A stretch of 64,000 nucleotides of DNA from Candidatus Jorgensenbacteria bacterium GW2011_GWB1_50_10. GTDB lineage: Bacteria; Patescibacteriota; Minisyncoccia; UBA6257; GWB1-50-10. How positions within the stretch are numbered: the stretch's first letter is position 1; each line of letters begins with the position of its first letter. Below are positions 22,973 to 43,558 of this stretch, in pieces. The stretch lies in the NCBI GenBank assembly GCA_001004105.1, contig LCQK01000001.1, positions 102,928 through 166,927 of the forward strand. Reading direction: 5' to 3'. The notes beneath the pieces were generated by a model that saw only the letters and a list, made by a program, of their open reading frames with translations, was not told where the DNA came from and made no database searches. Made by a program: the position numbers and the translations under genes.

Positions 22973-23044
22973 CGCGGGTAGGTGCTCCGGATGCACGGGA
23001 GGCCCATAACCTCCTCGTAGCGGGTCCGATTCCCGCACCCGCAA
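22973..23044 (+). ncRNA. atypical tRNA-like element, CAT anticodon, C1:A72, abutting the pheS start
   Basis: folds as a cloverleaf (acceptor CGCGGGT/ACCCGCA, D stem GTGC/GCAC, anticodon stem GGAGG/CCTCC, loop CCCATAA, T stem GCGGG/CCCGC) but has A8, C33 and C55 where U is near-universal. Confidence 0.45.
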
Positions 23045-23048
23045 CACA

Positions 23049-24182
23049 ATGAGAGAGATAATAATTAACTCCGAGGAGGAAAAGAAAATACTGAAGGAAC
23101 TGGAAAAAAGAAACGACATTGAAGCAATCCGACTCAAAAGGTTTTTCGGAATGCCGGATTTGTCAAGAACGCCGGGAAGCCCCCTTTACGAGCTGGTTCA
23201 AAGAGTTAAGAAAATCCCCGTTTTTCAAGATTTCGACGACATTAAAATTCCGGAAATCGTTCCAACGCGCGTTTTATTTGACCTTTTTAACATGCCGCCC
23301 GGACATCCGGCGCGAAGCAAATCGGACACTTATTACGTAGACGAGAATCACATCTTGATTACTCATGATACCGTTATGTGGTACTACTATTTCGAGCACC
23401 CGAGGGTTTTGGAAAAAATAGCTGGGGGCGAGGATTTGGGTGTGGTATGTTACGCGAAAGTTTACCGCAAGGACGAGATTGACCAGCACCATATGAACGT
23501 ATTTCACCAGTTCGGTGGCCTCTATCTTACAAGGAATGAGAAGAGAAAAGTCGTTCTTGACGATCTTAAGAATGTCCTGGGAGATGTAGCGAAGAGTGTT
23601 TTTGGTCCCGGCGTGGAGTACAATTTTACTCTTGAAGTTTTTCCCTATACCGATCCGAGCGTTGAAATGAACATCAAGATAAAAGGAAAGTGGGTTGAAA
23701 TGGTCGGCTCCGGGTTGCCTCGCAAAGACGTACTGGCAAATTTTGGGGTGAGTGGTTATAACGGCTGGGCTTTTGGTTTCGGTTTGGAAAGGTTGGCAAT
23801 AGTGAGCATGGATTTACCCGACATCCGTCTCTTATGGTCCGATGACCCGCGAGTAAAGCGTCAGTTGAAACTAGGCAGCAAATTCAAGGAGGTTTCCAAG
23901 TACCCGCCCATCACGAGGGACATTTCGTTTGTGGTCGGTAACAACTTCGTTTCTAACAACTACTTTGACTTGATCCGGGATCTGGGCGGCAGTTTGGTTG
24001 AAGAAGTGAAATTGCTTGATACTTACGAGAACGAAGAAAAATTCGGCAAAGATAAAGTGAGCTACACTTTTCGCATCACTTACCGTTCGCCCGAGCGGAC
24101 GCTCACCAACGAGGAAGTGGACAAGATTCAGAAGGAAATCGAATCCCGCACCCAAGAGGAATTTAAGGCAGTGGTGCGGTAG
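23049..24182 (+). CDS. pheS: phenylalanine--tRNA ligase, monomeric mitochondrial type (PheS catalytic core fused to an FDX-ACB anticodon-binding domain)
   Basis: class II motif FNMPPGHPARSKSDTYYV; C-terminal ...FRITYRSPERTLTNEEVDKIQKEI matches the PheT/FARS2 FDX-ACB domain; no pheT adjacent. Confidence 0.8.
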   Translation: MREIIINSEEEKKILKELEKRNDIEAIRLKRFFGMPDLSRTPGSPLYELVQRVKKIPVFQDFDDIKIPEIVPTRVLFDLFNMPPGHPARSKSDTYYVDENHILITHDTVMWYYYFEHPRVLEKIAGGEDLGVVCYAKVYRKDEIDQHHMNVFHQFGGLYLTRNEKRKVVLDDLKNVLGDVAKSVFGPGVEYNFTLEVFPYTDPSVEMNIKIKGKWVEMVGSGLPRKDVLANFGVSGYNGWAFGFGLERLAIVSMDLPDIRLLWSDDPRVKRQLKLGSKFKEVSKYPPITRDISFVVGNNFVSNNYFDLIRDLGGSLVEEVKLLDTYENEEKFGKDKVSYTFRITYRSPERTLTNEEVDKIQKEIESRTQEEFKAVVR

Positions 24183-26300
24183 CTACTCCCAATGAGTTTC
24201 TTTTTTGAAATCCGTGAGGCGCTCCCGGAGAGCCGTAAAATTTTTGAGCGACGGGTCTTTTTTTAATATCGCGAGCGCTTCCTCGCGCGCATCTTTCACC
24301 AGTTCCAGATTTTGGAGGGCTTTCATTGCCAAATCCGGCATACCGGTCTGGATGGTACCCAGAAATTCGCCCGGTCCCCGGATCGCCAGATCCCTTTCGG
24401 CCAGTTCAAAACCGTTTTTGGCTTTCACTATTGATTCCAATCTTCGGCGGGTGGTTTTTGATGAAGAATCGGTGAAAAGAAAACAGAATGACTGGTGTTC
24501 TCCGCGGCCGACTCGCCCCCGGAATTGGTAAAGCTGGGCCAAACCGAAGCGGTCGGCTCCTTCAATCATCATAATGGTCGCGTTCGGCACATCCACGCCG
24601 ACCTCCACCACCGAAGTAGCTACTAAAATATCTATTCTTTCGCGTTTATCCGCCGAAGCTTTAGCGAAGGCGGACATGGTTCTTTCTTTTTCTTTTGATG
24701 CCATTTTGCCGTGAAGTACGGAAACGCGCAGGTCCGGGAAGATTTTTTTGGCCAGTTTCTCAAATTCCTCTTTCACGGATTTGATTTCCAGTTTGCCGGT
24801 GTCCGTTTCGTTTTTTTCGCCCGGTTCGATGCGCGGGCAGATGACGAAAACCTGCCGGTCTCTTTTAACCTGGCCGCGGATGAAAGCGTAGGCCTTCTCG
24901 CGGTTTTCGGGGGCAACCACCTTGGTGATTATCGGCTTCCGGTTTTTGGGGAGTTCGGTGATAAGCGACAAATCCAAATCGCCGAACAAAGTAAGCGATA
25001 AAGTGCGGGGGATGGGAGTCGCCGACATAGAAAGGAGATGCGGCACCAAATTTTTGCCGCCCACCAGTTCTTTTCTCTGCTTTACGCCGAAACGGTGCTG
25101 TTCGTCGATGACGACGAGCGCCAAATTGAGGAAGGAAACGTTTTTTTGGATAAGAGCGTGGGTGCCGACCGAGATTTTTATTTTGCCGTTCGATATCTCT
25201 TTCAGGAAATCCGGTTTTTTGATGCTCGACTCCAGTCTATGGCCGTAAAAAATCTTCGCTTCCGACGAAGTCAAAAGCCCGATTTCGGCCCCAAGCTCGC
25301 TGAAAATTTTCTTCAGGGTGCCGTAGTGCTGGCGGGCGAGAATTTCGGTCGGCGCCATGAAAGCGGTCTGTGCGCCGTTTTTGGCGGCAACAAGAGCCGC
25401 GACGGCGGCAATAACTGTTTTGCCGCTCCCCACATCGCCCTGGAGCAGACGGTTCATCGGTTGCGTTTTATTCAGGTCTTTCAGAATCTCCCAGAGGGAT
25501 TTTTTCTGGGTTTCGGTAAGTTCAAAAGGCAGTTTGGAGAGAATCTCCTTAATTTCCTCAATTTTAAATTTGAGCGGCATCGCTTTCTCTTTGGCTATCT
25601 TCAGTTTTTCGGTGAGGACGGTGAACTCCAAGAGTAAAAGGTCTTCAAAAGCGAAGCGGCGCTTGGCGGCGACGGCTTCTTCCAAATTTTCTGGGAAATG
25701 GACGGCCTGAAGCGCCTCGTTTATCTCCGGCAGGTTTTTATTTTTTAAAATGTCGTGAGGAATGAAATCCCTTAACTTTTCCAGTTCGTCCAAAACAGGC
25801 TTTATGAGATAGCGGAGGCCTTTAGAAGTAAGTCCTCTCGTTTCCGGGTAAATCGGCACGATGCGGCCGGTGTGTTTCGTTTCCCTCCAGTCGCTTACGA
25901 GTTCGTAGACGGGGTTCGAAAGATAAATTTCTTCGTTTGAGACAACCACTTTGCCGGAAAAATTCGCGATCCTACCAGGTTGAAGGATGTTTTTGATGTA
26001 GGGCTGGTTGAACCAAACCGCCCGAATGGAGCCGGTTTCATCACTTACAAGCGCCTCCACAATATAGAGATGTTTCCGCCAAGTGCGGCGGCCGCCGATT
26101 TCTTTGATGACTCCCTGAATGGTCGCCTCCTGATTTGGTTCCAAGTCCCGGATAGCGTAAATTTGAGAAAAATCCTCGTAGCGGGTGGGGAAATGCCAGA
26201 GTAAATCTCTAACGTTTTGGATTCCGAGATTTTTCAGTTTGCTCAAAAACCGCGGGCCAATGCCGTAAACTTCCGAGAGCGGCGCGCCAAGCTGAATCAC
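24183..26300 (-). CDS. recG: ATP-dependent DNA helicase RecG
   Basis: 705 aa; wedge/OB N-terminus; helicase motifs GDVGSGKT, DEQHRFG. Confidence 0.9.
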   Translation of the reverse strand: MIQLGAPLSEVYGIGPRFLSKLKNLGIQNVRDLLWHFPTRYEDFSQIYAIRDLEPNQEATIQGVIKEIGGRRTWRKHLYIVEALVSDETGSIRAVWFNQPYIKNILQPGRIANFSGKVVVSNEEIYLSNPVYELVSDWRETKHTGRIVPIYPETRGLTSKGLRYLIKPVLDELEKLRDFIPHDILKNKNLPEINEALQAVHFPENLEEAVAAKRRFAFEDLLLLEFTVLTEKLKIAKEKAMPLKFKIEEIKEILSKLPFELTETQKKSLWEILKDLNKTQPMNRLLQGDVGSGKTVIAAVAALVAAKNGAQTAFMAPTEILARQHYGTLKKIFSELGAEIGLLTSSEAKIFYGHRLESSIKKPDFLKEISNGKIKISVGTHALIQKNVSFLNLALVVIDEQHRFGVKQRKELVGGKNLVPHLLSMSATPIPRTLSLTLFGDLDLSLITELPKNRKPIITKVVAPENREKAYAFIRGQVKRDRQVFVICPRIEPGEKNETDTGKLEIKSVKEEFEKLAKKIFPDLRVSVLHGKMASKEKERTMSAFAKASADKRERIDILVATSVVEVGVDVPNATIMMIEGADRFGLAQLYQFRGRVGRGEHQSFCFLFTDSSSKTTRRRLESIVKAKNGFELAERDLAIRGPGEFLGTIQTGMPDLAMKALQNLELVKDAREEALAILKKDPSLKNFTALRERLTDFKKETHWE

Positions 26301-26322: not shown

Positions 26323-27159
26323 TTATTTTTTCTTAAGTTTTTTTCTCAACCGTTCCAGGTAAAGACAGATGCCGAAAAAAACCTGGTCGTTTTTGAGCGC
26401 TTGGAGCGGATTGCGTTTTCTCAAGTCCTCCTTTTGGGTGAGAAGTTCGTTAGCGATAGCGAGGTCGGTTTCGTATGTTTCGGCAATAGCCGGCTGCCCG
26501 ACTGCTCGGGCGTAGGCCGCGAAAGCTTCAAGCTGCAAGCGTATTTCTTCAAGCATAATGATTTGCATCGGGTGCTCGGCAAGCTTCCCCTGGTCGCGGG
26601 CGAGCCAGACGGGGATCAATTGTTCGACTGTTCTTTGGTCGGCGCCCACGACCACCTCGGGTATTTGCTGGACTTCGCCTCGGAGAGAGGAGGATTTGAA
26701 ATATTTCACCTGGGCAAGCTCGCCCCTTTCTATTTTTGAAACGATCCGCTCGAGTTTTTTATCAAGGACCGGGTTAAAAGTGACGTCAATGCCGAGCGCC
26801 AACCGGGAGGTTTTACCCGGTTCGCCGGTGAATTCAACAATTTCATCAACGCCGTTTTTTACGTCATCGTAACGTGACGTCTTCATTGTTCTGGCGTCTG
26901 GTCCGAGCCAGTCGCTTAGTTCGGCCTGTTCGTGGATAATAGCTTCGAGGACGGTCGCCATTTTGCTCGGCTCACGGTATTCCGGGCTGGCCTCAATTTT
27001 TTGAATTTCAGCTAAGTCGCGTTCAACATTATCTTCCCCGTAAAGGTCAATAAAATCTTTTTCTTTAATTACGTCGAGAGCCAAAGCTTCCTCGGCGCGT
27101 CTAAATGCAAGCTCAACATCGGTTTCTTGTTCTATCTCTCTTTCGAATTGATTTCTCAT
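26323..27159 (-). CDS. hypothetical protein
   Basis: 278 aa acidic ORF; no motif recognised. Confidence 0.5.
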   Translation of the reverse strand: MRNQFEREIEQETDVELAFRRAEEALALDVIKEKDFIDLYGEDNVERDLAEIQKIEASPEYREPSKMATVLEAIIHEQAELSDWLGPDARTMKTSRYDDVKNGVDEIVEFTGEPGKTSRLALGIDVTFNPVLDKKLERIVSKIERGELAQVKYFKSSSLRGEVQQIPEVVVGADQRTVEQLIPVWLARDQGKLAEHPMQIIMLEEIRLQLEAFAAYARAVGQPAIAETYETDLAIANELLTQKEDLRKRNPLQALKNDQVFFGICLYLERLRKKLKKK

Positions 27160-32120: not shown

Positions 32121-32693
32121 ATGCATAATTTTGTACCCGCCAAGGTCTTTTTTACGAAAGGAGTTGGCCGCCACAAGGAAGAGCTTGGTTCTTTTGAGAT
32201 GGCGCTTCGTGACGCGGGGATTGAGAAGTTTAACCTCGTTCGAGTTTCGTCTATTTTTCCTCCGAACTGCAAGATTATTTCGCGGGAGAAGGGGCTCCAG
32301 CTTCTTAATCCCGGGGAGGTCGTGTTTTGCGTAATGTACGATTTGCGGGCGAACGAGCCGAACCGCTTAATGGCGGCCTCCGTAGGGCTTGCGGTGCCGG
32401 CGGATCCCAACCAATACGGCTATCTTTCCGAGCATAAATCTTTCGGTGAAACGGAAGAGAGAGCCGGCGAATACGCCGAGGATCTGGCGGCGAGCATGCT
32501 CGCCACGACGCTCGGGCTTGAGTTTAACGCCGATGCCGCCTGGGATGAACGCGAGCATATTTACAAAACGAGCGGGAAGATAATAAAAACGACGAACATC
32601 ACGCAATCGGCAGTAGGGAATAAAGATGGTCTTTGGACGACGGTTCTCGCCGCCGCAGTTTTCGTTTCTGATGGGAACGGTGCAGAGGTTTGA
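32121..32693 (+). CDS. pdaD: pyruvoyl-dependent arginine decarboxylase
   Basis: PdaD-family N-terminus with the VSS|I self-cleavage site ([10 protein letters not shown]). Confidence 0.75.
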
Positions 32694-33013
32694 TGATAAG
32701 CTTTGAAGATTTCAAAAAATTGGATTTACGGGTGGCGAAAATCGTCGCCGCGGAAAGGGTGGAGGCGACGGACAAGCTTCTGAAGCTTCACCTTGATATT
32801 GGCGGTGAGGAGCGGCAAATTATCTCTGGTATTGCCGAGGAATATTCTCCCGAAGGACTAATCGGCCGGGAAATCGTGATTATCGCCAATCTCGAACCGC
32901 GGAACTTCAAGGGAATTGAAAGCCAGGGGATGCTTCTTGCCGCCGAGTCGGATGGCGTGATATCGCTTTTGAAGCTGGATGAGGAAGTCCCGCCCGGCAG
33001 CCCGGTTCACTAA
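32690..33013 (+). CDS. tRNA-binding protein (CsaA/Trbp111/EMAP-like domain)
   Basis: [22 protein letters not shown] resembles the MetRS C-terminal tRNA-binding domain. Confidence 0.7.
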
Positions 33014-33881: not shown

Positions 33882-34085
33882 ATGTTTGAAAGCCATGACT
33901 GGCGGTCCAAACCGGGGCTCTTCAGAGAAGGCAGTGACGAGTTTTTCGAGCTGGTTTTGAGCACGGGCGTGCAAATTGAGCTCTTACCCACCGAACCCTC
34001 GTCAGGCATCTTCCAGCACCGCTTCTGCGCGAATCATCCGGGCGAAGAAGTGTTGGAGGAATTGTCTCTCGCCGTCTTTGACTGA
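33882..34085 (+). CDS. small hypothetical protein (high GC)
   Basis: GGAGG-like RBS, 67 aa, followed by a strong terminator. Confidence 0.35.
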   Translation: MFESHDWRSKPGLFREGSDEFFELVLSTGVQIELLPTEPSSGIFQHRFCANHPGEEVLEELSLAVFD

Positions 34086-34097
34086 ACCCGGGCAGTG

Positions 34098-34135
34098 CTC
34101 CGTCATCTCGCACGAGATGACGGAGCGTTTTTCTT
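34098..34135 (+). terminator. rho-independent terminator
   Basis: CTCCGTCATCTCG-cac-GAGATGACGGAG hairpin followed by TTTTTCTT. Confidence 0.7.
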
Positions 34136-34174
34136 ATGGTATAAATTTTTAAGCGCCTGCCCGCTGGCAGGCAG

Positions 34175-34248
34175 GGGCCTGTAGTATAGTGGTAATACAC
34201 CGCATTCGCATTGCGGAGACAGGGATTCGATTTCCCTCAGGTCCACCA
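34175..34248 (+). tRNA. tRNA-Ala (CGC), CCA encoded
   Basis: G3:U70 identity pair; anticodon loop TTCGCAT; 3' ...CAGGTCCACCA; preceded by palindrome GCCTGCCCGCTGGCAGGC. Confidence 0.8.
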
Positions 34249-34348
34249 CGTAATTTCGTTTGATTTTTGAAGCCGCTTAATCTACCTTGAAAGGCAGCAC
34301 CATTGCCTATTTTGGGCTATCCCACATCTAAATTAAGGAGAGTGAAAC

Positions 34349-35053
34349 ATGGAGAGCAGGATAATTCTCGCTGCCGACATGAGTCTTGGTGAGTGCCTGG
34401 ACTTGACCCATGCGATCGGAGAGAGGGTCTACGCGGTCAAGGTTCACGACGCCTATGACTCGAACGGCCCGACCGCGGTCAAGATGCTCCGCGAAGCCGG
34501 GGCCATGCGGGTTTGGGTGGACGCGAAGCTTCATGACATTCCGAACACGGTGAAGCGCCGTGCCAATGCGATCGCCGATTCCGGCGCCCAGATTCTCACG
34601 GTTCACGCCTCGGGTGGAATCGAGATGATGCAAGCGGCGGTCGGCGAGTTTCCTTTCGAGGTCTACGCAATCACGGTTCTCACCTCACTCACTGAAGAGG
34701 AGGTGCATCTCGCTTACGGCCAGCCATCCAAGGCGGCCGTACTCTACCTCGCGCGGCTTGCCAAGCTCGCAGGAGTTGCCGGCATCGTCTGTTCCCCGAA
34801 GGAGGTCGGTATTCTCGCCAAGCGGCCGGAACTGAAAGGCATGAAGTTCGTGGTTCCAGGCATCCGGTCGGCCGGCAAGGATAAAGGAGACCAGGAACGG
34901 GTGGATACACCGGCGGCGGCCTTGAAAGACGGCGCCGACTATCTCGTCGTCGGCCGCCAGATCACGCAGGCCTCCGACCCGGTGGCCGCACTCATTGAGC
35001 TCGAGGCGGAGATTTCCGCGGCTCTCGCTTCAATCGAAGGAGCGAAGTCATGA
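34349..35053 (+). CDS. pyrF: orotidine-5'-phosphate decarboxylase
   Basis: AADMSL...KVHDAY...DAKLHDIPNT...VVGRQI motifs; high GC. Confidence 0.8.
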   Translation: MESRIILAADMSLGECLDLTHAIGERVYAVKVHDAYDSNGPTAVKMLREAGAMRVWVDAKLHDIPNTVKRRANAIADSGAQILTVHASGGIEMMQAAVGEFPFEVYAITVLTSLTEEEVHLAYGQPSKAAVLYLARLAKLAGVAGIVCSPKEVGILAKRPELKGMKFVVPGIRSAGKDKGDQERVDTPAAALKDGADYLVVGRQITQASDPVAALIELEAEISAALASIEGAKS

Positions 35054-35784
35054 AAAGAAGACCCAACAACGGGAGAATTAATTCTCTCGAAGTATCCGGA
35101 ATGCCGCTCGCCGGGCTTCGCGGACTCCTCGCCGAAGATTTCAACGGCGACATCTCGCCAGCCGCTCTCCGGCACATTCTCACGATCTGCGACGCGCTCT
35201 GGCTCCATTCGGGCGACCCGGCTTTGCCGCACGCCGAGCTCACCTCGGGTAAGTGCAGTAACGGGTTCGTGGATGTGCTCCGCGTTCTTCAGTATCCGAA
35301 TCTCTGCGAGCTTCTGGCGTGTCAGCTTGTCATGAAGCTCGAGGCGACCTACCGCGGGCCTATTCACTGGGCGGTTGGTTCGGACCACGCCGGCGCGACC
35401 ATTTCCTACGCCGTCGCGAACTGGCTTCTCGCAAAGCACGCTTTCACGGAGAAGGGGCTGGACAAGACCCAACTCTGGAAGCGGTTCGTGATTGAGCCGG
35501 AGGAGGTCGTTCTTCAGGTGGAAGACCTCGTGACCACGCTCGGTACGCTCCGGGCGGTGCGGGAAGGCATCCGGCAGGGGAATCCGCATCCGGTCACGTT
35601 CGCTCCCGTCGTTCTCACGCTCGTCCATCGTTCGGACGTCTACGAGTTCGAGGGCGCGCCCATCGTCTACCTCGCGCACTACGACATCCAAACATGGTCG
35701 CCCGAGGAATGCCCTCTTTGCAAGGCCGGCTCCGTTCGGCTCCGGCCCAAGGAGAACTGGGCCAAACTCACGGGACAGGAGTAG
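35050..35784 (+). CDS. pyrE: type I phosphoribosyltransferase, probable orotate phosphoribosyltransferase
   Basis: PRPP-binding motif VLQVEDLVTTLGT; ATGA overlap with pyrF. Confidence 0.5.
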   Translation: MKRRPNNGRINSLEVSGMPLAGLRGLLAEDFNGDISPAALRHILTICDALWLHSGDPALPHAELTSGKCSNGFVDVLRVLQYPNLCELLACQLVMKLEATYRGPIHWAVGSDHAGATISYAVANWLLAKHAFTEKGLDKTQLWKRFVIEPEEVVLQVEDLVTTLGTLRAVREGIRQGNPHPVTFAPVVLTLVHRSDVYEFEGAPIVYLAHYDIQTWSPEECPLCKAGSVRLRPKENWAKLTGQE

Positions 35785-35806
35785 TTCTGTCTCAAGCAAA
35801 AAGCAA

Positions 35807-35841
35807 GCGGCACCAGAAAATCGGTGCCGCTTTCGCTTTTT
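35807..35841. terminator. bidirectional terminator (GCGGCACC-agaaaatc-GGTGCCGC)
   Basis: hairpin plus flanking T run; the same element recurs inverted at 36728-36765. Confidence 0.65.
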
Positions 35842-35853
35842 CTTCATCGCTCG

Positions 35854-36135
35854 TCACTCCTCTTTCCCTGTGTTCGGAATGGCCGGGCCGCAGCCGCCGG
35901 GATGCCGGTCATAGTAGGCGCGGCAGTTTTTCAAGAACAATTCCCGCGTCATAGTGATGGTGCCCGCGTTTAGCGATTCCGGCAGGAGCCGGTAGAGCTC
36001 CGAATCCAAAATCCAGCACCGGTCGTTGTTGTGCGCGTTCCGGTGGCGCCGGATGGCGTTGCGGAGCCGCATCACCTCCCTCCGCAGTTCCGGAGCCACC
36101 ATCGGCTTCAGATCCCTATCCTGCAGTCGCATCAT
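35854..36135 (-). CDS. hypothetical protein (high GC)
   Basis: AAGGAGA RBS upstream on the minus strand; 93 aa. Confidence 0.5.
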   Translation of the reverse strand: MMRLQDRDLKPMVAPELRREVMRLRNAIRRHRNAHNNDRCWILDSELYRLLPESLNAGTITMTRELFLKNCRAYYDRHPGGCGPAIPNTGKEE

Positions 36136-37902: not shown

Positions 37903-38166
37903 ATGAAACGGTGGACGATTGTTTTTAAGGCGTTATCTAATGTCAATCGGCTCAAAATCATAAGACTTTTGTCAAAAGGCGGCGCTTTGAATGTCGGCGG
38001 CATTGCCGAGGAACTCAATATTTCGCCGAAAGCCACCTCCAAGCATTTGATAATTCTTCATAACTTGGACGTTCTGGAAAGCGTAGGGAAAGAAGGTCAC
38101 GTTTTGTATTCGCTGAACACGAAAATGCCGCGGGATTTTCGCAGAGTTTTGGGGAACTTTAATTAA
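37903..38166 (+). CDS. ArsR/SmtB-family transcriptional regulator
   Basis: HTH SNVNRLKIIRLLSKGGALNVGGIAEELNISPKATSKHLIILHNL; start ATG 37903 just after the extended -10. Confidence 0.7.
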   Translation: MKRWTIVFKALSNVNRLKIIRLLSKGGALNVGGIAEELNISPKATSKHLIILHNLDVLESVGKEGHVLYSLNTKMPRDFRRVLGNFN

Positions 38167-38240
38167 GCAGTTTGCCCGGGGCGCGCTCCTTATCCTATCC
38201 TAACCTTGTCTTACCTTTCTTACTCTAAGGCCTTAGGGAA

Positions 38241-38256
38241 CAATTCGCGCGAATTG
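38241..38256. promoter_or_regulatory. CAATTCGCGCGAATTG palindrome (operator copy 2)
   Basis: identical to 37858-37873 with 4 bp of flank each side. Confidence 0.6.
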
Positions 38257-38339
38257 GCGAATGGTTGGTGAATGGGGAAGGGGCAAATTGTCCGTTTCTC
38301 GAAAATGAGGCAGAATGAGGGGATAAATTAGTTATCGTA

Positions 38340-38366
38340 TGATAACCATTGACAAATTGGTTATCA
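38340..38366. promoter_or_regulatory. inverted repeat TGATAACCA-N9-TGGTTATCA spanning a TTGACA hexamer (candidate TA operator)
   Basis: seen directly; the P3 promoter module lies at 38288-38316. Confidence 0.5.
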
Positions 38367-38384
38367 GTTATATTCTTTGTATAT

Positions 38385-38639
38385 ATGGATAAAAAACTCT
38401 TGTCGACGAGTGAAGCCGCAAAAATTTTAGGTATCAGCCGGGTAGCGGTATTGAAGAGAATTAAAAAGAATCAGCTTAAAGCCAGGAAGGTTGGGAAGAA
38501 TTATGTCATTGCTAAAGAAGATCTGCCGATTGAGGCAGGGGGTGAAATCACCGAAATTAAGAAAAAACTAATTGATGCAGCCATAAAAAAAGCATTAACC
38601 GACTATCGGGAAACTCTGGAATTGTTGGGGAAAGAATAA
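38385..38639 (+). CDS. HTH (excisionase/MerR-type) DNA-binding protein, probable antitoxin of Doc
   Basis: LSTSEAAKILGISRVAVLKRIKKNQL HTH; 12 nt upstream of doc. Confidence 0.6.
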   Translation: MDKKLLSTSEAAKILGISRVAVLKRIKKNQLKARKVGKNYVIAKEDLPIEAGGEITEIKKKLIDAAIKKALTDYRETLELLGKE

Positions 38640-38650
38640 ATTGATCGTTT

Positions 38651-39067
38651 ATGCAGCAGCTTTCAATAACAGAGGTTGAGTATGTTGCTCATCGTTTGGC
38701 AAAAGCATGGTTAAGCTGGGATGAGCCGATTCCCGATTTCGACACAAGATTCCCAAACATTTTAGAAAGCTGTATTGCCACCCCATTCCAATCGTTTGGC
38801 AAAAAAGCGGCCTACTCCGGCCTTATCGGCAAGGGGGCGATTTTGTTTTACTTGATGATTAAAAATCATCCTTTCCGTAACGGGAATAAAAGGATCGCCG
38901 TGACTACTCTTCTGGTTTTTCTGTATAAAAACAAAAAATGGCTCCGTGTTGATGAACGCGAATTTTACAATTTTGCCAAGTGGGTCGCGGAGAGCAGCCC
39001 CAAGTTTAGGATTGAAACTATTGCCGCCATTTCAAAATTCATAAAGACGTATATGATAAAAATATGA
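38651..39067 (+). CDS. doc: Doc/Fic-family toxin
   Basis: Fic/Doc motif HPFRNGNKRIAVTT (HxFx(D/N)GNKR). Confidence 0.75.
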   Translation: MQQLSITEVEYVAHRLAKAWLSWDEPIPDFDTRFPNILESCIATPFQSFGKKAAYSGLIGKGAILFYLMIKNHPFRNGNKRIAVTTLLVFLYKNKKWLRVDEREFYNFAKWVAESSPKFRIETIAAISKFIKTYMIKI

Positions 39068-39161
39068 AAATAAAATATTTGTTTGTCCAAAAAGGCCGGA
39101 AGTTGATAGTAAAGGATTGGAGAAGGTAGGCTAAGGTTATTAAGGTAAATCCTTGACTTTT

Positions 39162-39191
39162 TTGATACGATTTGCTAAATTAGCATAAAAT
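39162..39191 (+). promoter_or_regulatory. promoter TTGATA-N17-TAAAAT with palindrome TGCTAAATTAGCA in the spacer
   Basis: palindrome 39173-39185 directly upstream of abiEi. Confidence 0.5.
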
Positions 39192-39200
39192 ACTAACTTT

Positions 39201-39788
39201 ATGAAATGGATAGATTTTGAGCGAAAAATAAAAGCAAAGAACATCAAGCTTTTTACCCCCCTCGACGTGCAAAAATTTTTAGGGAGAACGAAAATAGCCA
39301 CGCGTTTTTTAATCCACCGTTTGAAAAAGAACGGGTATATTGTGAGCGTAAAACGCGGCTTGTATCAATTGTCCGATGAACAAATCCCCGATGTATATGT
39401 CGCTAACAGGATTTACGCCCCCTCATATGTATCTTTGGAATTCGCGCTGTCATACTACGGCGTTATTCCCGAGACGGTGTATGAAATTACCTCGGTGACG
39501 ACAAAAACCACCCGTCGGTTCGAAACGCTTGGCAAGATTTTTTCTTATCACAAGATAAAAAAGACGGCCTACACCGGCTACGCCATTCACAGTCAGAACG
39601 GGATGCGTTTCTATATCGCCGATGCCGAAAAAGCGTTCGTTGATGCAAGCTACTTGCGCCTGATGCGGAAACAAAAGCCGATTTCCCGTTTTCGCAAAGA
39701 AAAAATCAATCGCGCCAAGTCGTTAAAATACGCTTCGCTCTTCAATAATGAAAAACTTACCAGCATCATTAAAACAACGCTCCAATGA
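39201..39788 (+). CDS. abiEi: AbiEi-family antitoxin/transcriptional regulator
   Basis: 195 aa N-terminal wHTH-like; ATGA overlap with the downstream DUF1814 nucleotidyltransferase. Confidence 0.6.
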   Translation: MKWIDFERKIKAKNIKLFTPLDVQKFLGRTKIATRFLIHRLKKNGYIVSVKRGLYQLSDEQIPDVYVANRIYAPSYVSLEFALSYYGVIPETVYEITSVTTKTTRRFETLGKIFSYHKIKKTAYTGYAIHSQNGMRFYIADAEKAFVDASYLRLMRKQKPISRFRKEKINRAKSLKYASLFNNEKLTSIIKTTLQ

Positions 39789-40546
39789 TTTCGGTGGAAT
39801 CGCTTGAAAAATTGAGCAGGCGGTATCAAGCAGGAATATTTCCCAATATAATCAGGGAATATTTTCAGCATGTTTTTCTGGGAGAGTTGTATAAGATGGA
39901 AGGCGCGGAGAAAATGCTCTTTAAAGGAGGCACCGCCTTGCGGATTGTGTATGGCAGTCCGCGTTTTTCCGAGGACTTGGATTTTTCCTTGTTCGGTGTC
40001 GCGCAGAACGAGCTGAAATCTTTCATTGAAGGGGTTTTTGCGCGGGTTCTGGCGGAGATAGAGCACGTCGGCATAAAAGTCGAACTTGGAGAAAAAATCG
40101 GCCCTACGCGCGGGGGATATTTCGGCGTCGCGACATTCCGCATGCTTGAATATCCGCCAGTTGCCGTGGAGATAAACGTGTCGGCGCGCAACGGCAGGGA
40201 CATGCGGGGAGAAATAGACAGCGTCGCGGGCGATTTTGTGCCGACTTACACCGTCGTTCACTTGCCGCAGAACGAGCTTGTGGAAGAAAAAATTTTCAGC
40301 GCGCTCCGCGAGCGCAAGAAACCGCGCGATTTCTACGATCTTTATTTCATCATGCGCAAAGCGATGCTCTCGCCTGATCAGAAAAAACGGCTGGCCGGAA
40401 TAAAGGAAGAAATAACCGCAGCCGCGGGACGCGTTGATTTTCGCGGCGAGTTGGGCGCCCTCCTGCCGGTGGACCAGCAGCCGGTTATCCGCGATTTCCC
40501 GGCCATGCTTGAACGCGAGCTTAATAGGCAGTTAAGTGGAATATGA
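39785..40546 (+). CDS. abiEii: AbiEii/AbiGii-family nucleotidyltransferase toxin
   Basis: KGGTALRIVYGSPRFSEDLDF motif typical of DUF1814/AbiEii. Confidence 0.75.
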   Translation: MISVESLEKLSRRYQAGIFPNIIREYFQHVFLGELYKMEGAEKMLFKGGTALRIVYGSPRFSEDLDFSLFGVAQNELKSFIEGVFARVLAEIEHVGIKVELGEKIGPTRGGYFGVATFRMLEYPPVAVEINVSARNGRDMRGEIDSVAGDFVPTYTVVHLPQNELVEEKIFSALRERKKPRDFYDLYFIMRKAMLSPDQKKRLAGIKEEITAAAGRVDFRGELGALLPVDQQPVIRDFPAMLERELNRQLSGI

Positions 40547-40636
40547 AAACAAGAGATCTGCCGAAAGGCCGGAAGTTGATAGTAAAGGATTGGAGGAATT
40601 AGAAAACCGCCGAAAAGGCGGTTTTCTAATTGTAAA

Positions 40637-40665
40637 TTGAGCATTTTGAAAATTTGAGGCAGAAT
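40637..40665 (+). promoter_or_regulatory. island promoter module TTGAGC-17-CAGAAT (leaderless to ATG 40672)
   Basis: spacer ATTTTGAAAATTTGAGG identical to 37436-37452. Confidence 0.5.
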
Positions 40666-40671
40666 GAGGGT

Positions 40672-41373
40672 ATGAGTAATAATCCATTGCAAAAATTTAA
40701 TGATCTTCTGGAGAAGGTGGATTTAGTTGGTTATCGCAAGAGGTATCAACCAATCAAGATAGTAGAAATGGACTTACCCAAAGAAATTCAAGCAGTAAGC
40801 CTTCTCTACGAAATTTACTGGGATAAAAAGATGTTCGTCAATTTTGATGAATTTTACCGAATATATTTAAAGCTTTACAAGCATAAATTAGAAGAATTCA
40901 GGAAAAACAAAGCCTTTATGTGCAAAAACTGTTTTTATAGAGGCTTAGAGGCAAGGATTTATAGAACATGGGCGAGTATTATTACACAGATTCACGCAGC
41001 TTATGTTGCTGAATCAGTTTTTGTTAGTGGCACCGTTAGGATGTCAGAAGCCCTAGATCGAGCCGGCGCTGATTTCCAAGTCCAATATAAGAAAAAAACA
41101 TTAAATTATCAGGTTAAAAAAATCTCTTTTAGTAGAGAGGTTAGGAAAGAAAAACCTAAATCTAAGCAACCACTGGAAGGCGAATTTTTCGATATAACTT
41201 ACGACGTTCCTAGTGATAGCTATTTTAGAAATCCGAAGAGGAAAAACGGAAAATACAGATTGCCTTATTTAAGATTTAAAGAAAATAAAAATCTAAAACG
41301 ACTACCTAACGGCTTTGTTGTATTCACGCCGCTGATTTTTGAGGAAAAAAAGAAGGAGATAGATGCAATTTAG
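40672..41373 (+). CDS. hypothetical protein, candidate restriction endonuclease partner of the LexA-MTase fusion
   Basis: 233 aa; convergent with the methylase, 4 bp overlap at the 3' ends; no confident nuclease motif; call rests on context only. Confidence 0.3.
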   Translation: MSNNPLQKFNDLLEKVDLVGYRKRYQPIKIVEMDLPKEIQAVSLLYEIYWDKKMFVNFDEFYRIYLKLYKHKLEEFRKNKAFMCKNCFYRGLEARIYRTWASIITQIHAAYVAESVFVSGTVRMSEALDRAGADFQVQYKKKTLNYQVKKISFSREVRKEKPKSKQPLEGEFFDITYDVPSDSYFRNPKRKNGKYRLPYLRFKENKNLKRLPNGFVVFTPLIFEEKKKEIDAI

Positions 41374-42896
41374 ATTAAATTTGGTGTTGTTTTAACTTTA
41401 TTAAGCCATTTTTCAGCCAAATTTACATAATCTGGGTTTATTTCGAAGCCAATGTAATTTTGGTCTAATTCTTTTACTGCCACACATTCTGAACCGCTGC
41501 CAACAAACGGTATTAATATAACTCCTTCTTTTTCGGGAGCAGATGATTTAATAAGTTTTCTTGTTAATTCAAGAGGTTTTTGGGTGGGGTGTTTTATTAC
41601 ATTGTGTTTTGAATGCTCTTGTAGTTTTTGCGGTTCAAAAACATCGTTACAGGTTTTACATAAAAACCATCTTTCAACCATTCCTGCGCCGCCGGCTAGT
41701 GCCGCCGTTTTTATGACGTCTCTCGGTAAAGCGCCATTCTTGTGGAATTTATAAATCGTTTCTTTGCCGTTTTTACTGAATCTTCCAGGCGTACCTTTTC
41801 TTATTTTTCCCGCGGCGCCATTTAAAAATCCCTCTGTATATGGTTCTCTCACCTCGTCTTTGTTGAAAATTGGCTTGTTTTTCCAAGCGCAAACTATGGC
41901 TTCATGGCTCCTTTGCCAAAAATTTAAAGAAGCCACGTTTTTGTTAGTGTAATGCCAAATTAGCCAACGCTTATTTATAGGTATTTCTACAGATAAATAA
42001 GCTAAAATTTCACTAAAACCGTAGATAAAAAGCGTTGCAGTTGGTTTCATAACTCTTACACTTTCATTTATCCAACTTTTGCACCAATTAACATATTCAT
42101 TTAATTCTCTCTTATCGGTATTATTGCCAAAATCTTTCCCGATGTTATAGGGTGGATCAACAATAATCACATCACAGCTGTTATCCGGTAACTTTCTTAA
42201 CTCTTCCACTGCATCCCCGCAGATAATTTGATTAAGAGGTAAACGCTTATATTTTCTATCTACAGTTGGGCGTTGTAGAGATATTTCCTGGAAACCCTTT
42301 TCCGGGCTCTTGATTACATCTAAGACAACCCCTTGTATTGCGAATTCCCTATTCTTTCTAACAATTATCGGTTCAAAGTTTTTATTTGCCGGTTGGAGGC
42401 GGATTTGATTTCTTTCCTTGTAAAAAGTTTTTAAAGTTGTCTCGTAGTTGTCTATTAGCGCCACGATTTTCTGACCATTCTCTGCAAACCCCTGTTGTTT
42501 GACTAATATAATATCTCCGTCGAGGATGTTTTCTTCAATCATGCTCTCACCAGCAACACGCAGGGCATAAACTTCTCCGTTTTTCGGGATTTTGGTCTGG
42601 GGGACAGCGATTGTTTCTTTTGTGCCTTCGTATGTCTCCACTGGCCGGCCGGCAGCGATAGTTCCAAGTAGCGGAATTTGGACCATTGGTTCTATTTCGC
42701 GTACGGAGAGAGAACGTGCCCGTCCCGGGAGTTTTTCTAGACGGCCGGCGCCGCGAAGGTTTTGAAGGTGTTCGTGAATGGTAGAAACTGACCTCCTAAA
42801 ATGGCGCGCCATCTCTTCTATAGAGGGTGGCACATCGTGTTTGGAGGAGTATTCCCTCATAAAGCGGATAATCTGTTCTTGACGTAGGGTTGGCAT
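41370..42896 (-). CDS. fusion protein: LexA-type repressor (wHTH + Ala-Gly site + S24 Ser/Lys autopeptidase) joined to a beta-class N6A/N4C DNA methyltransferase
   Basis: N-terminus QIIRFMREY...EEMARHFRRSVSTIHEHLQNLRGAG; cleavage site GTIAAGRP; VAGESMIEENILDGDIILV and TTLKTFYKE; then CDVIIVDPPYNIG (motif IV) and LIPFVGSGSECVAV (motif I) at the C-terminus. Confidence 0.8.
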   Translation of the reverse strand: MPTLRQEQIIRFMREYSSKHDVPPSIEEMARHFRRSVSTIHEHLQNLRGAGRLEKLPGRARSLSVREIEPMVQIPLLGTIAAGRPVETYEGTKETIAVPQTKIPKNGEVYALRVAGESMIEENILDGDIILVKQQGFAENGQKIVALIDNYETTLKTFYKERNQIRLQPANKNFEPIIVRKNREFAIQGVVLDVIKSPEKGFQEISLQRPTVDRKYKRLPLNQIICGDAVEELRKLPDNSCDVIIVDPPYNIGKDFGNNTDKRELNEYVNWCKSWINESVRVMKPTATLFIYGFSEILAYLSVEIPINKRWLIWHYTNKNVASLNFWQRSHEAIVCAWKNKPIFNKDEVREPYTEGFLNGAAGKIRKGTPGRFSKNGKETIYKFHKNGALPRDVIKTAALAGGAGMVERWFLCKTCNDVFEPQKLQEHSKHNVIKHPTQKPLELTRKLIKSSAPEKEGVILIPFVGSGSECVAVKELDQNYIGFEINPDYVNLAEKWLNKVKTTPNLI

Positions 42897-42918
42897 ATTG
42901 ATTTTCGGGTTTTTTTCG

Positions 42919-42935
42919 GTTATAATTATTATAAC
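42919..42935. promoter_or_regulatory. perfect palindrome GTTATAAT-n-ATTATAAC (candidate LexA-like operator) over the -10 region of the fusion gene
   Basis: 8 bp arms, 23-39 nt upstream of start codon 42896 on the minus strand; contains two TATAAT hexamers. Confidence 0.6.
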
Positions 42936-42999
42936 AATCCACTAAGCCCAAAATCACGGGGCACTGTGGATAAAAAGGTCGTAAAATTAAAGGAAAAAC

Positions 43000-43290
43000 A
43001 TGACTAAAAGAGGAAAAATCGGACAGGCTAGGCATGACGCAAAAGTTCAGCAACGTTTGGATCTTTATAAGGATAAAGGTTTTAGGGTTAAAGCTGATTT
43101 GCCGGGTCGAGCTAAACCTCAAAAAATTGGTGGTAGGATCCCCGATATTATAGCTAAAAAGGGTAAAAAGTTGGTTGTTGAAGAAGTCGAAACTCGCTCA
43201 ACCAAAGATACTGATAAAACACAGCAAGAAGCCCTTAGAAAAGGCACGAAGGAACGCGGTGGTACTTTCAAGGTAATTGTGGCTAAATAG
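43000..43290 (+). CDS. hypothetical basic protein (possible degenerate PD-(D/E)xK fold)
   Basis: RIPDIIAKKGKKLVVEEVETR resembles the PD...ExK block of the next gene; weak. Confidence 0.4.
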   Translation: MTKRGKIGQARHDAKVQQRLDLYKDKGFRVKADLPGRAKPQKIGGRIPDIIAKKGKKLVVEEVETRSTKDTDKTQQEALRKGTKERGGTFKVIVAK

Positions 43291-43299
43291 TTATAAGAT

Positions 43300-43518: not shown

Positions 43519-43558
43519 TAACTAACCCGCCGCGGTCCGGAGGAGTATAAATATAAAA

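What the first reader, a model, noticed from the sequence alone, without database searches (positions are those of the whole stretch)
23049..24182. Monomeric mitochondrial-type phenylalanyl-tRNA synthetase (PheS core fused to an FDX-ACB anticodon-binding domain), no pheT nearby
The C-terminal ~90 residues (RDISFVVGN...FRITYRSPERTLTNEEVDKIQKEIES) match the FDX-ACB domain. That domain normally ends bacterial PheT and human FARS2. The N-terminal ~280 residues carry the class II motifs. Canonical bacterial PheRS is an (alpha-beta)2 heterotetramer. A single-chain enzyme would lack the PheT editing domain.
Basis: partly seen in the sequence, partly recalled or inferred. Interest (0 to 1): 0.55.

Follow-up and report, generated by a model that had tools for sequence, protein, structure and literature searches.

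The report
Mitochondria-style one-chain PheRS in a bacterium
A tiny-genome bacterium appears to charge its phenylalanine tRNA with a one-chain enzyme of the kind otherwise known from mitochondria, and this gene sits exactly where close relatives keep the usual two-gene enzyme.

Summary
ORF 23049-24182 (+) encodes 377 aa: a PheS class II catalytic core (44-272) joined to an FDX-ACB domain (283-377). Its best sequence and fold match is human mitochondrial PheRS.

It is the only PheS-like gene in a 675-kb, 98.6%-complete Patescibacteria genome. That genome has no pheT, no B3/B4 editing domain and one tRNA-Phe(GAA).

The type is common but patchy. It occurs in 20 of 41 relatives and 28 of 401 genomes sampled from the phylum. 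No searched genome has both it and canonical pheS-pheT.

In the window's family both forms occupy the same slot, between the tRNA-Met genes and recG. In three same-genus pairs the flanking genes are 53-96% identical, yet the PheRS gene is swapped (about 30-33% identity). One single-chain genome keeps an intact remnant of the resident pheT. This indicates repeated displacement at the same locus, with exchange among Patescibacteria.

In trees of the whole protein and of the FDX-ACB domain alone, the bacterial single-chain forms are a sister clade of the eukaryotic organellar enzymes plus giant-virus copies. They are not derived from the bacteria's own PheS/PheT.

I found no paper describing this. 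Activity, monomer state and fidelity are inferred.

The parts
23049..24182 (+). Single-chain PheRS gene, 377 aa plus stop codon
   Evidence: ORF. Pfam and NCBIfam. Only PheS-like gene of the genome.
23049..23177 (+). Short N-terminal helical region (residues 1-43), in place of the long coiled-coil arm of canonical PheS
   Evidence: Predicted helices 9-19 and 24-34. The pheS profile is matched only from position 70 onward. Alignment.
23178..23864 (+). Class II PheS catalytic core (residues 44-272). Carries motif 2 (VYRKDEID..HQ, R140), the FPY triad (198-200) and motif 3 (GWAFGFGLERLA, A241, R248).
   Evidence: PF01409 E 3.2e-46. Invariant columns in the 52-sequence alignment. A241 aligns with E. 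coli PheS A294.
23865..23894 (+). Junction (residues 273-282, QLKLGSKFKE) between the end of the PheS-like part and the FDX-ACB domain. It has almost the same length as in eukaryotic organellar PheRS.
   Evidence: Alignment. Canonical PheS proteins end at ...RF..QF, just before this stretch.
23895..24179 (+). FDX-ACB (PheT B8-like) anticodon-binding domain, residues 283-377
   Evidence: PF03147 E 7.2e-25. TIGR00472 profile positions 698-798. Domain-only tree.
22973..23045 (+). tRNA-Met(CAT) gene 3 nt upstream. It belongs to the conserved tRNA-Asp/tRNA-Met/tRNA-Met cluster that marks the PheRS slot in this family.
   Evidence: Synteny.
24183..26300 (-). recG, convergent and abutting the PheRS stop codon. 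It is the conserved right-hand flank of the PheRS slot.
   Evidence: RecG_wedge and helicase domains. Synteny.

Best explanation
The gene encodes the cell's only phenylalanyl-tRNA synthetase. It is a single polypeptide built like mitochondrial PheRS (FARS2/MSF1): a PheS-type class II catalytic core joined to the FDX-ACB domain that normally ends PheT.

Inferred mechanism, by homology to the human enzyme:
- The core makes Phe-AMP. Specificity relies on the conserved aromatic FPY triad and on Ala241, the equivalent of E. coli A294.
- The FDX-ACB domain swings from a closed to an open position to read the GAA anticodon of the single tRNA-Phe (G1-C72, A73).
- Phe is then transferred to the tRNA.
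- There is no editing domain in cis or in trans, so fidelity against Tyr and m-Tyr rests on the active site alone.

Evolution:
- This bacterial form shares one fusion event with the eukaryotic organellar enzyme.
- It has displaced pheS-pheT at the resident locus several times within Patescibacteria, and it is exchanged among them.

What is shown: the architecture, the uniqueness in the genome, the distribution, the synteny and the phylogeny. What is inferred: catalysis, monomer state, domain swing and lack of proofreading.
For: - Architecture and family.
- Fold: the AF2 model has pLDDT 94.8 and pTM 0.90. Its top Foldseek hits are human mtPheRS 5mgh/3cmq, E 1e-33, TMq 0.80, rmsd 2.8-3.1 Å over about 386 columns. 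Bacterial PheS alpha chains cover only the core, TMq about 0.54.
- Sole PheRS, part 1: the pheT model finds only this ORF's FDX-ACB plus a 23-bit tRNA_bind ORF. PF01409 finds this ORF plus a 21-bit stretch in a 484-aa frame.
- Sole PheRS, part 2: phmmer against 6100 six-frame ORFs finds only the gene itself. B3_4 gives 0 matches at E<=1, with 14 of 14 control genomes ringing.
- Substrate: one tRNA-Phe(GAA) among 44 tRNAs.
- Catalytic residues: R140, H148, F152, H153, Q154, P199, G243 and R248 are invariant, and F198, A241 and E206 nearly invariant, across 52 sequences.
- Exclusivity in relatives: of 41 genomes, 20 have only the single-chain form, 19 have pheS+pheT over cut-off, 1 has partial pheS/pheT at contig ends, and 1 (88% complete) has none. 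None has both.
- Exclusivity in the phylum sample: 28 of 401 genomes have the single-chain form. There is a clean gap in E-values, 8e-63 against 1.5e-34. Each of the 28 has a single FDX-ACB match.
- Same slot: 9 of 9 canonical and 6 of 6 single-chain regions, plus the window, lie beside the tRNA-Met cluster. recG follows in 6 of 9 canonical regions and in 5 of 6 single-chain regions plus the window.
- Same-genus swaps with flanks 53-96% identical.
- pheT remnant: a 134-aa B2 ORF, 74% identical to residues 43-160 of the sister genome's PheT, sits 8 nt upstream of the single-chain gene in G384.
- tRNA-Phe does not differ by enzyme type: 14 single-chain and 13 canonical genomes all have G1-C72, A73 and GAA.
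- Trees.
Against: - No biochemical evidence exists for any bacterial member.
- The protein falls below the curated cut-offs of all three related NCBIfam models: pheS_mito 223.4 against 258.35, SrmL 211 against 300, pheS 152.1 against 237.45.
- The genome is a 10-contig assembly, so a pheST operon in a gap cannot be excluded formally.
- The second aromatic residue of the substrate-sandwiching triad is Tyr (FPY), not Phe (FPF), in most bacterial members. The consequence is unknown.
- AlphaFold2 was trained on the human structure, so the fold match is not fully independent.
- The tree outgroup lacks named Alphaproteobacteria, archaeal and cytosolic alpha chains, and true SrmL members.
Confidence: 0.88

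Rival explanations
1. The single-chain gene arose locally and independently, by a deletion inside the resident pheS-pheT operon. The deletion would fuse PheS to the last domain of PheT. The likeness to FARS2 would then be convergent.
For: The gene sits exactly where relatives have pheS-pheT. PheS ends, and the FDX-ACB domain begins, just where one in-frame deletion would join them. A pheT remnant survives next to the gene in G384.
Against: The core is only about 28-33% identical to the PheS of same-family and same-genus genomes, while flanking genes are 53-96% identical. It is 50-65% identical to single-chain forms of other families of the phylum. In the careful tree the 7 Patescibacteria canonical PheS form their own clade (100/100) inside bacterial PheS. 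All fused proteins form one clade (100/100). The FDX-ACB-only tree also separates all fused proteins from all 39 PheT sequences, 9 of them Patescibacteria (SH-aLRT 96).
Confidence: 0.05
2. The protein is a PheS-like ligase with another, non-translational job, like NCBIfam's 'PheS-related mystery ligase SrmL'. The real PheRS would simply be missing from the assembly.
For: NF051887 (SrmL) matches nearly end to end with 211 bits, close to the pheS_mito score. NCBI annotates many members as 'hypothetical protein'.
Against: The score is below the SrmL cut-off of 300. A tRNA-Phe gene is present, and no other PheS or PheT is found in a 98.6%-complete genome. The same exclusivity holds in 19 further relatives and in 27 further genomes of the phylum sample. 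The gene occupies the pheST slot. The ATP and Phe-site residues are conserved.
Confidence: 0.04
3. The gene is an artefact: eukaryotic or viral contamination, or a chimeric assembly.
For: The nearest characterised relatives are eukaryotic. Giant-virus contigs also carry such genes.
Against: The gene is embedded in a 237-kb contig between bacterial tRNA genes and recG, with no intergenic room. The same arrangement is seen in 6 other genomes. Scans of viral contigs found no close relative of this protein. It clusters with Patescibacteria sequences at 64-82% identity.
Confidence: 0.01

Closest known systems
Mitochondrial/organellar monomeric PheRS (human FARS2, yeast MSF1; NCBIfam TIGR00469 pheS_mito; 'PheRS-M' in AARS Online, PMC11580382, passages read)
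   Same: It has the same two-domain architecture and the same junction. Both have a short N-terminus instead of the PheS coiled coil. There is no beta subunit and no editing domain. It gives the best PDB sequence match (E 1e-53) and fold match (TM 0.80 to the closed form 3cmq). The fusion has a common origin in the whole-protein tree and in the FDX-ACB tree.
   Different: Here the enzyme serves a bacterial cytoplasm as the only PheRS. It has no targeting presequence and lacks the insertion between motifs 2 and 3 that many eukaryotic forms carry. It scores below the curated cut-off (223.4 against 258.35). It forms a sister clade (100/97) rather than sitting inside the eukaryotic clade. It has FPY instead of FPF.
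Canonical bacterial (alpha-beta)2 PheRS: PheS (TIGR00468) plus PheT (TIGR00472)
   Same: The catalytic core is homologous to PheS, and the C-terminal domain is homologous to the PheT B8/FDX-ACB domain. It charges the same kind of tRNA-Phe, and the tRNA is indistinguishable between genomes with either enzyme. It occupies the same chromosomal slot as pheS-pheT in relatives.
   Different: It is one gene of 1.13 kb instead of two totalling about 2.9 kb. It has no N-terminal coiled coil, no B1-B7 domains and no B3/B4 editing site. It scores below the pheS cut-off (152.1 against 237.45).
NCBIfam NF051887, 'PheS-related mystery ligase SrmL'
   Same: The profile aligns over nearly its whole length (positions 34-345 of 349). 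SrmL therefore appears to share the core plus a C-terminal domain layout.
   Different: The score is 211 bits against a cut-off of 300. None of the 31 fused proteins that I scanned reached the cut-off; the best was 273.8. I could not obtain a true SrmL member, and I found no paper on it. Its place in the tree is therefore unknown.
Replacement of the heterotetrameric plastid PheRS by the monomer type in diatoms and other algae (Gile et al. 2015, PMC4494062, passages read)
   Same: The one-chain enzyme repeatedly takes over from the alpha/beta enzyme, which is then lost.
   Different: There the replacement works by retargeting a nuclear gene product to another organelle. Here the gene is physically replaced at the same bacterial locus.
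Xenologous gene displacement in situ
   Same: An essential gene is replaced at its own locus by a distant functional equivalent while the flanks stay conserved.
   Different: Here two genes are replaced by one fused gene. This happened several times in one phylum, once in inverted orientation and once leaving a remnant of the old gene.

Membership tests
Monomeric mitochondrial-type PheRS (PheRS-M / TIGR00469) | One chain: PheS-type class II core followed by a C-terminal FDX-ACB domain | tested here: met
   PF01409 at 44-272 (E 3e-46) and PF03147 at 283-377 (E 7e-25)
Monomeric mitochondrial-type PheRS (PheRS-M / TIGR00469) | Score over the curated cut-off of the equivalog model | tested here: not met
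   223.4 bits against 258.35. It is nevertheless the best-scoring model. Giant-virus and eukaryotic forms pass with 260-310 bits.
Monomeric mitochondrial-type PheRS (PheRS-M / TIGR00469) | Works without a beta subunit; no pheT in the genome | tested here: met
   TIGR00472, PF03483 and PF01409 searches of the own genome. Controls rang in 14 of 14 genomes.
Monomeric mitochondrial-type PheRS (PheRS-M / TIGR00469) | Fold and domain arrangement of human mtPheRS | tested here: met
   Foldseek 3cmq/5mgh, E 1e-33, TMq 0.80, full length. Caveat: the AF2 training set holds these structures.
Monomeric mitochondrial-type PheRS (PheRS-M / TIGR00469) | Branches inside the clade of eukaryotic organellar enzymes | tested here: not met
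   It is a sister clade. Clade A (bacterial) has support 100/97 and clade B (eukaryotes plus giant viruses) 100/98.
Monomeric mitochondrial-type PheRS (PheRS-M / TIGR00469) | Monomeric quaternary state | not testable with these tools
   Needs size-exclusion or light-scattering measurements on purified protein.
Monomeric mitochondrial-type PheRS (PheRS-M / TIGR00469) | Charges tRNA-Phe with Phe | not testable with these tools
   Inferred from conserved active-site residues, from the single tRNA-Phe and from the absence of any other PheRS.
Canonical bacterial PheS (TIGR00468) | Score over the curated cut-off; N-terminal coiled-coil arm; partner PheT | tested here: not met
   152.1 bits against 237.45, with the profile matched only from position 70. 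No pheT.
SrmL, PheS-related mystery ligase (NF051887) | Score over the curated cut-off | tested here: not met
   211 bits against 300
SrmL, PheS-related mystery ligase (NF051887) | Genomic context and co-occurrence that define SrmL (not known to me) | not tested
   No SrmL member or description could be obtained.
Bacterial PheT (TIGR00472) | B1-B8 multidomain beta chain with the B3/B4 editing site | tested here: not met
   Only profile positions 698-798 are matched, 80 bits against 402.65.

The most novel reading that the evidence does not exclude
The one-chain PheRS is a bacterial invention. Under this reading the fusion arose once by a deletion inside a pheS-pheT operon in a Patescibacteria-like lineage. 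It then spread as an exchangeable locus that overwrites pheST at the same site. A bacterium carrying it, not the alphaproteobacterial endosymbiont, donated the gene that became mitochondrial PheRS (FARS2) before the last eukaryotic common ancestor. The evidence does not exclude this. The bacterial and eukaryotic clades are reciprocally monophyletic sisters. The operon layout offers an obvious one-step route to the fusion. The reverse direction (stem eukaryote to bacterium) or a third donor fits the trees equally well.
Probability: 0.3. Interest if true: 0.85.

Novelty: new variant of a known kind. Interest (0 to 1): 0.62.

Why it matters
Reviews describe monomeric PheRS as a peculiarity of mitochondria, and all bacterial PheRS as (alpha-beta)2 tetramers with an editing site (passages in PMC4394434 and PMC11580382). 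Three consequences follow.

1. Here a large group of bacteria apparently lives on the minimal enzyme alone, with no proofreading domain for Tyr or m-Tyr in cis or in trans. That makes them a natural test of how much PheRS editing matters.

2. The bacterial clade is the closest known outgroup of FARS2. The unresolved origin of the mitochondrial enzyme therefore becomes testable with trees and with biochemistry.

3. The pheST and single-chain forms alternate at one locus, even within one genus. This is an unusually clean, repeated case of an essential translation gene being overwritten in place.

There is also a practical point. pheS and pheT are, as far as I recall, used as single-copy marker genes. 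Genomes with this form will then look incomplete, and NCBI's pipeline names the gene 'hypothetical protein'.

Tried and rejected
- Stand-alone tRNA_bind ORF as a partner. I considered the ORF at window 32690-33013 because some relatives carry a tRNA_bind domain fused to the single-chain enzyme. I rejected it. It is the general CsaA/Trbp111 type (PF01588, 103 bits), whereas the fused and remnant domains are PheT-B2-like (58-62 bits). Similar small ORFs also occur in genomes with pheT.
- Homodimer test. Complex prediction with two copies of the protein gave 'no answer'. It counts neither for nor against a dimer.
- Identity of the ~345-370-aa forms that pass the pheS_mito cut-off. The genome-contig scan was flooded by canonical PheS through the motif-3 pattern. 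All 80 loci kept matched the core only; I reused them as a named outgroup. The metagenome scan gave two N-terminal fragments with phage- or virus-like neighbours. The viral-contig scan then placed these forms on IMG/VR contigs.
- Origin of P0214, P0210 and P0152, the sister group of the Patescibacteria clade. Cluster look-ups, the protein atlas and a viral scan gave no organism. Their origin stays unknown.
- The protein atlas for P0219 only returned Minisyncoccota clusters with automatic names such as 'putative phenylalanine--tRNA ligase'.
- The promoter and terminator scan around the gene was no better than shuffles.
- A D-aminoacyl-tRNA deacylase was sought as a possible trans-acting proofreader and not found (only 8 of 14 control genomes have one).
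- True SrmL members were not sampled. None of the 31 fused proteins scanned reached that cut-off.
- Direction of transfer between eukaryotes and bacteria could not be resolved.
- Literature. Seven searches found no paper that mentions a monomeric or mitochondrial-type PheRS in CPR/Patescibacteria or in any bacterium. I read only passages found by term search in PMC5370408, PMC6744442, PMC4394434, PMC11580382, PMC5388404, PMC10810186 and PMC4494062. Subscription journals are not covered.
- Supplements. I did not ask for supplementary files, which are closed. Supplementary Fig. S2 of PMC10810186, the AARS Online web pages and the supplementary tables of PMC4494062 may list bacterial members of PheRS-M.
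- Recalled and not seen here: Sanni 1991, Roy/Ibba 2005, Klipcan 2008/2012, Ibba 1994 (A294), Omelchenko 2003, and the use of pheS/pheT as marker genes.
Full report
**1. The observation**

An ATG-started ORF of 377 aa lies at 23049..24182 on the + strand. Pfam finds the PheS class II core (PF01409, residues 44-272, E 3.2e-46) and the FDX-ACB domain (PF03147, residues 283-377, E 7.2e-25).

NCBIfam ranks the related models as follows. All are below their curated cut-offs.

| Model | Bits | Cut-off |
|---|---|---|
| pheS_mito (TIGR00469) | 223.4 | 258.35 |
| 'PheS-related mystery ligase SrmL' (NF051887) | 211 | 300 |
| Bacterial pheS (TIGR00468) | 152.1 | 237.45 |
| pheT (TIGR00472), profile positions 698-798 only | 80.1 | 402.65 |

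Against PDB sequences the best match is human mitochondrial PheRS (E 1.1e-53, covering both domains). The best bacterial PheS alpha chain gives 2.3e-30. PheT beta chains match only residues ~278-371, at 3e-08 or weaker.

**2. It is the only PheRS of the genome**

The window lies in a 675,076-bp, 10-contig genome rated 98.64% complete.
- The pheT model finds only this ORF's own FDX-ACB part (81 bits) and a weak tRNA_bind ORF (23 bits). All 14 control genomes ring.
- PF01409 finds this ORF and a 21-bit stretch in a 484-aa frame on another contig.
- phmmer with the protein against all 6100 six-frame ORFs of 50 aa or more finds only the gene itself.
- The B3/B4 editing domain gives no match even at E<=1, with 14 of 14 controls ringing.
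- No D-aminoacyl-tRNA deacylase is found.
- ARAGORN finds 44 tRNA genes, including one tRNA-Phe(GAA) with G1-C72 and A73.

The names that sources give to close homologues point to Patescibacteria/Parcubacteria.

**3. Structure and active site**

An AlphaFold2 model built from a 52-sequence alignment has mean pLDDT 94.8 and pTM 0.90.
- Foldseek ranks six entries of human mtPheRS first: E about 1e-33, TMq 0.79-0.80, rmsd 2.8-3.4 Å, over 384-388 columns.
- The tRNA-bound 'open' form 3tup scores TMq 0.60.
- Bacterial PheS alpha chains cover only the core, with TMq 0.52-0.55.

So the model has the closed arrangement of the apo human enzyme. The caveat is that those structures were in AF2's training data.

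In the alignment R140 (motif 2), H148, F152, H153, Q154, P199, G243 and R248 (motif 3) are invariant. F198, E206 and A241 are nearly invariant. A241, in GWAFG, aligns with A294 of E. coli PheS, in GFAFG. I recall that residue as the Phe-specificity determinant. The aromatic triad reads FPY here and in most bacterial members, against FPF in E. coli and eukaryotes.

Canonical PheS proteins end at '...RF..QF'. The fused proteins continue from there with about 10 residues into 'SKYP..(R/K)D(I/M)(S/A)F', the start of FDX-ACB. The junction has almost the same length in the bacterial and eukaryotic forms.

**4. Distribution**

*Public protein collections*
- The 120 best homologues are 64-100% identical and 343-445 aa long. 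All carry both Pfam domains.
- Named ones are Patescibacteria. NCBI mostly calls them 'hypothetical protein', and JGI calls them 'phenylalanyl-tRNA synthetase alpha chain'.

*Own family and order (41 genomes including this one)*
- 20 have only the single-chain form.
- 19 have pheS and pheT over cut-off, always adjacent.
- One has partial pheS and pheT at contig ends.
- One (88% complete) has none.
- No genome has both.

*Even sample of 401 genomes of the phylum*
- 28 have the single-chain form, with E from 3.7e-259 to 8e-63. The next best match is 1.5e-34.
- 360 show only canonical-level PheS matches.
- 13 have no match at E<=1e-10.
- Each of the 28 has exactly one FDX-ACB match, its own.

The 28 lie in 11 family codes. 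Some genus codes are split between the two types:
- g54: G316 and G424 are single-chain, G289 is canonical.
- g307: G384 is single-chain, G360 is canonical.
- g324: G387 is single-chain, G410 is canonical.

These counts include the unpublished genome G190 (canonical type). Nothing rests on it.

**5. Same chromosomal slot**

In the window the order is ligA, gatC, gatA, a nucleotidyl transferase, tRNA-Asp, tRNA-Met, tRNA-Met, PheRS, recG, an unknown 278-aa ORF, tRNA-Lys, tRNA-Arg. I fetched 15 regions from family and order relatives.
- In 9 of 9 canonical genomes pheS-pheT lies beside the tRNA-Met cluster. In 6 of these 9, recG follows pheT.
- In 6 of 6 single-chain genomes the gene lies beside the tRNA-Met cluster. 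In 5 of these 6, and in the window, recG follows.
- With 1.5-kb flanks only, tRNA-Met genes are seen next to 14 of 19 canonical loci and 7 of 11 single-chain loci.

In 13 single-chain loci from other families of the phylum, none of these neighbours is within 5 kb (0 of 13). There, the three same-genus pairs show the same swap in another context, next to gyrB.

| Genus | Single-chain genome | Canonical genome | Flank identity | Note |
|---|---|---|---|---|
| g324 | G387 | G410 | 63-96% | MONO against pheS: 33% identical |
| g307 | G384 | G360 | 53-84% | pheT remnant, see below |
| g54 | G316, G424 | G289 | 50-84% | single-chain gene inverted relative to the flanks |

In G384 an intact 134-aa ORF lies 8 nt upstream of the single-chain gene. 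It encodes a tRNA_bind (B2) domain that is 74% identical to residues 43-160 of the 774-aa PheT of G360. This is a remnant of the displaced gene, and it fixes the direction there as canonical to single-chain.

The same B2-like domain is fused to the N-terminus of the single-chain enzyme in 8 of the 18 long Patescibacteria-like forms found. The domain content of one, P0121, was confirmed.

**6. Exchange among Patescibacteria**

The same-genus genome G001 has flanking proteins 62-84% identical to the window's, but its single-chain PheRS is only 54% identical. G022, of another genus, has flanks 52-70% identical and a PheRS 74% identical. Genomes of other families reach 50-65%.

The gene's history therefore departs from that of its neighbours.

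tRNA-Phe does not track the enzyme type. Of the 27 tRNA-Phe genes recovered from 30 loci, 14 come from single-chain genomes and 13 from canonical ones. All have GAA, G1-C72 and A73, and near-identical sequences occur across the two types. This fits free interchange of the two enzymes.

**7. Relation to FARS2**

Using a C-terminal fragment and the 'longer' length class, I obtained 36 fused proteins 29-43% identical to the query.
- Named records from that search include Discostella, Orobanche, Pneumocystis, Capronia, Emericellopsis and Plasmodium.
- Later look-ups added Pteridium, Vitrella and Schistocerca.

The exhaustive search of 50%-identity representatives found 193 proteins at E<=1e-30.

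A set of 338-357-aa forms pass the pheS_mito cut-off (260-308 bits). They proved to lie on IMG/VR viral contigs up to 1.47 Mb, several labelled GVMAG: 45 of 46 loci at 38-50% identity.

*Careful tree.* This was IQ-TREE with LG+C20+F+G4 PMSF on 90 rows and 366 columns. Support is given as ultrafast bootstrap / SH-aLRT.
- 20 canonical PheS (13 from named diverse bacteria including E. coli, 7 from Patescibacteria): 100/100.
- All 70 fused proteins: 100/100.
- Clade A, 100/97: 23 Patescibacteria forms, one protein labelled as an Oligoflexia MAG, and three proteins of unknown origin.
- Clade B, 100/98: 29 eukaryotic or eukaryote-like forms (themselves a clade, 98/87) among 14 giant-virus forms.
- The Patescibacteria canonical PheS form their own clade (100/100), beside Melainabacteria.

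*FDX-ACB-only tree.* This was a quick search on 108 rows and 97 columns. It splits all fused proteins from all 39 PheT sequences, 9 of them from Patescibacteria (SH-aLRT 96).

Both domains therefore point to one fusion event shared by the bacterial and organellar enzymes, and neither domain derives from the host lineage's own PheS/PheT.

Limits:
- No named Alphaproteobacteria, no archaeal or cytosolic alpha chains and no true SrmL members are in the trees.
- Many clade-B rows are unnamed.
- The stems are long (0.5-1.1 changes per site).
- Which way the gene travelled between bacteria and eukaryotes is not resolved.

**8. Mechanism, with shown and inferred steps marked**

*Shown*
- The architecture and the conserved active-site residues.
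- The single tRNA-Phe.
- The absence of pheT, of the editing domain and of DTD.
- The exclusivity with pheST, the same-locus replacement and the phylogenetic position.

*Inferred from homology to human and yeast mtPheRS* (reviews read in passages; primary papers recalled)
- The enzyme acts as a monomer and forms Phe-AMP in the class II site.
- It binds tRNA-Phe by swinging the FDX-ACB domain from the closed to the open position to read G34.
- It recognises G1-C72 and A73.
- It has no post-transfer editing.

**9. Novelty**

Reviews and databases that I could read treat the monomeric type as mitochondrial or organellar only. Seven full-text searches found nothing on bacterial members.

The sequences themselves are public. 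They are partly auto-named 'putative phenylalanine--tRNA ligase', and NCBIfam holds a related 'mystery ligase' model. So the existence of the family is visible in databases.

What appears undescribed:
- its role as sole PheRS of many Patescibacteria;
- its sister position to FARS2;
- the repeated same-locus displacement of pheST.

I rate it a new variant of a known kind, with interest 0.62.

Noticed in passing
L122-L167 (IMG/VR contigs); P0219, P0232, P0244, P0246 and others: Contigs filed as viral, several labelled GVMAG and up to 1.47 Mb long, encode presequence-less 338-370-aa FARS2-type PheRS. These pass the pheS_mito cut-off. In my tree they branch around the base of the eukaryotic clade.
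   Followed up: partly
L185 4670-5074 (genome G384); P0121, P0126, P0128, P0129, P0131-P0134: A PheT-B2-type tRNA-binding domain survives as a separate ORF just upstream of the single-chain gene. In other lineages it is fused to the N-terminus, giving a B2 + PheS core + B8 enzyme of 504-520 aa.
   Followed up: partly
window 32690-33013 (+): A stand-alone 107-aa tRNA_bind protein of the CsaA/Trbp111 type (PF01588, E 9e-30) lies just upstream of a truB-like ORF. Similar small ORFs occur in relatives with either PheRS type.
   Followed up: partly
G030:C25:4367-7388 (L025): In one same-order genome the pheS and pheT matches carry in-frame TGA codons, 3 and 2 respectively. This could be a different genetic code, pseudogenes or sequencing errors.
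   Followed up: no
G000:C1:4612-4685 (outside the window): ARAGORN calls a tRNA-Ile with anticodon TAT. This is an uncommon way for bacteria to read AUA.
   Followed up: no
window 38001-44000 and 34001-36000: G+C drops to 0.41 over about 6 kb and rises to 0.59 over 2 kb, against about 0.50 elsewhere. This may be a foreign island and an RNA gene region.
   Followed up: no
window 26323-27159 (-): A 278-aa ORF next to recG has no Pfam match. It is conserved, 43-70% identical, at the same place in two relatives.
   Followed up: no
P0208; P0214, P0210, P0152: A single-chain PheRS labelled as an Oligoflexia MAG sits inside the Patescibacteria clade, which suggests transfer or mis-binning. Three 439-456-aa proteins of unknown origin, with N-terminal extensions, form the sister group of that clade.
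   Followed up: partly
G015-G037 pheT matches: The canonical PheT of this family and order start at about profile position 156 of 798, so they lack the B1/B2 N-terminal domains. This agrees with a remark in PMC5370408.
   Followed up: no
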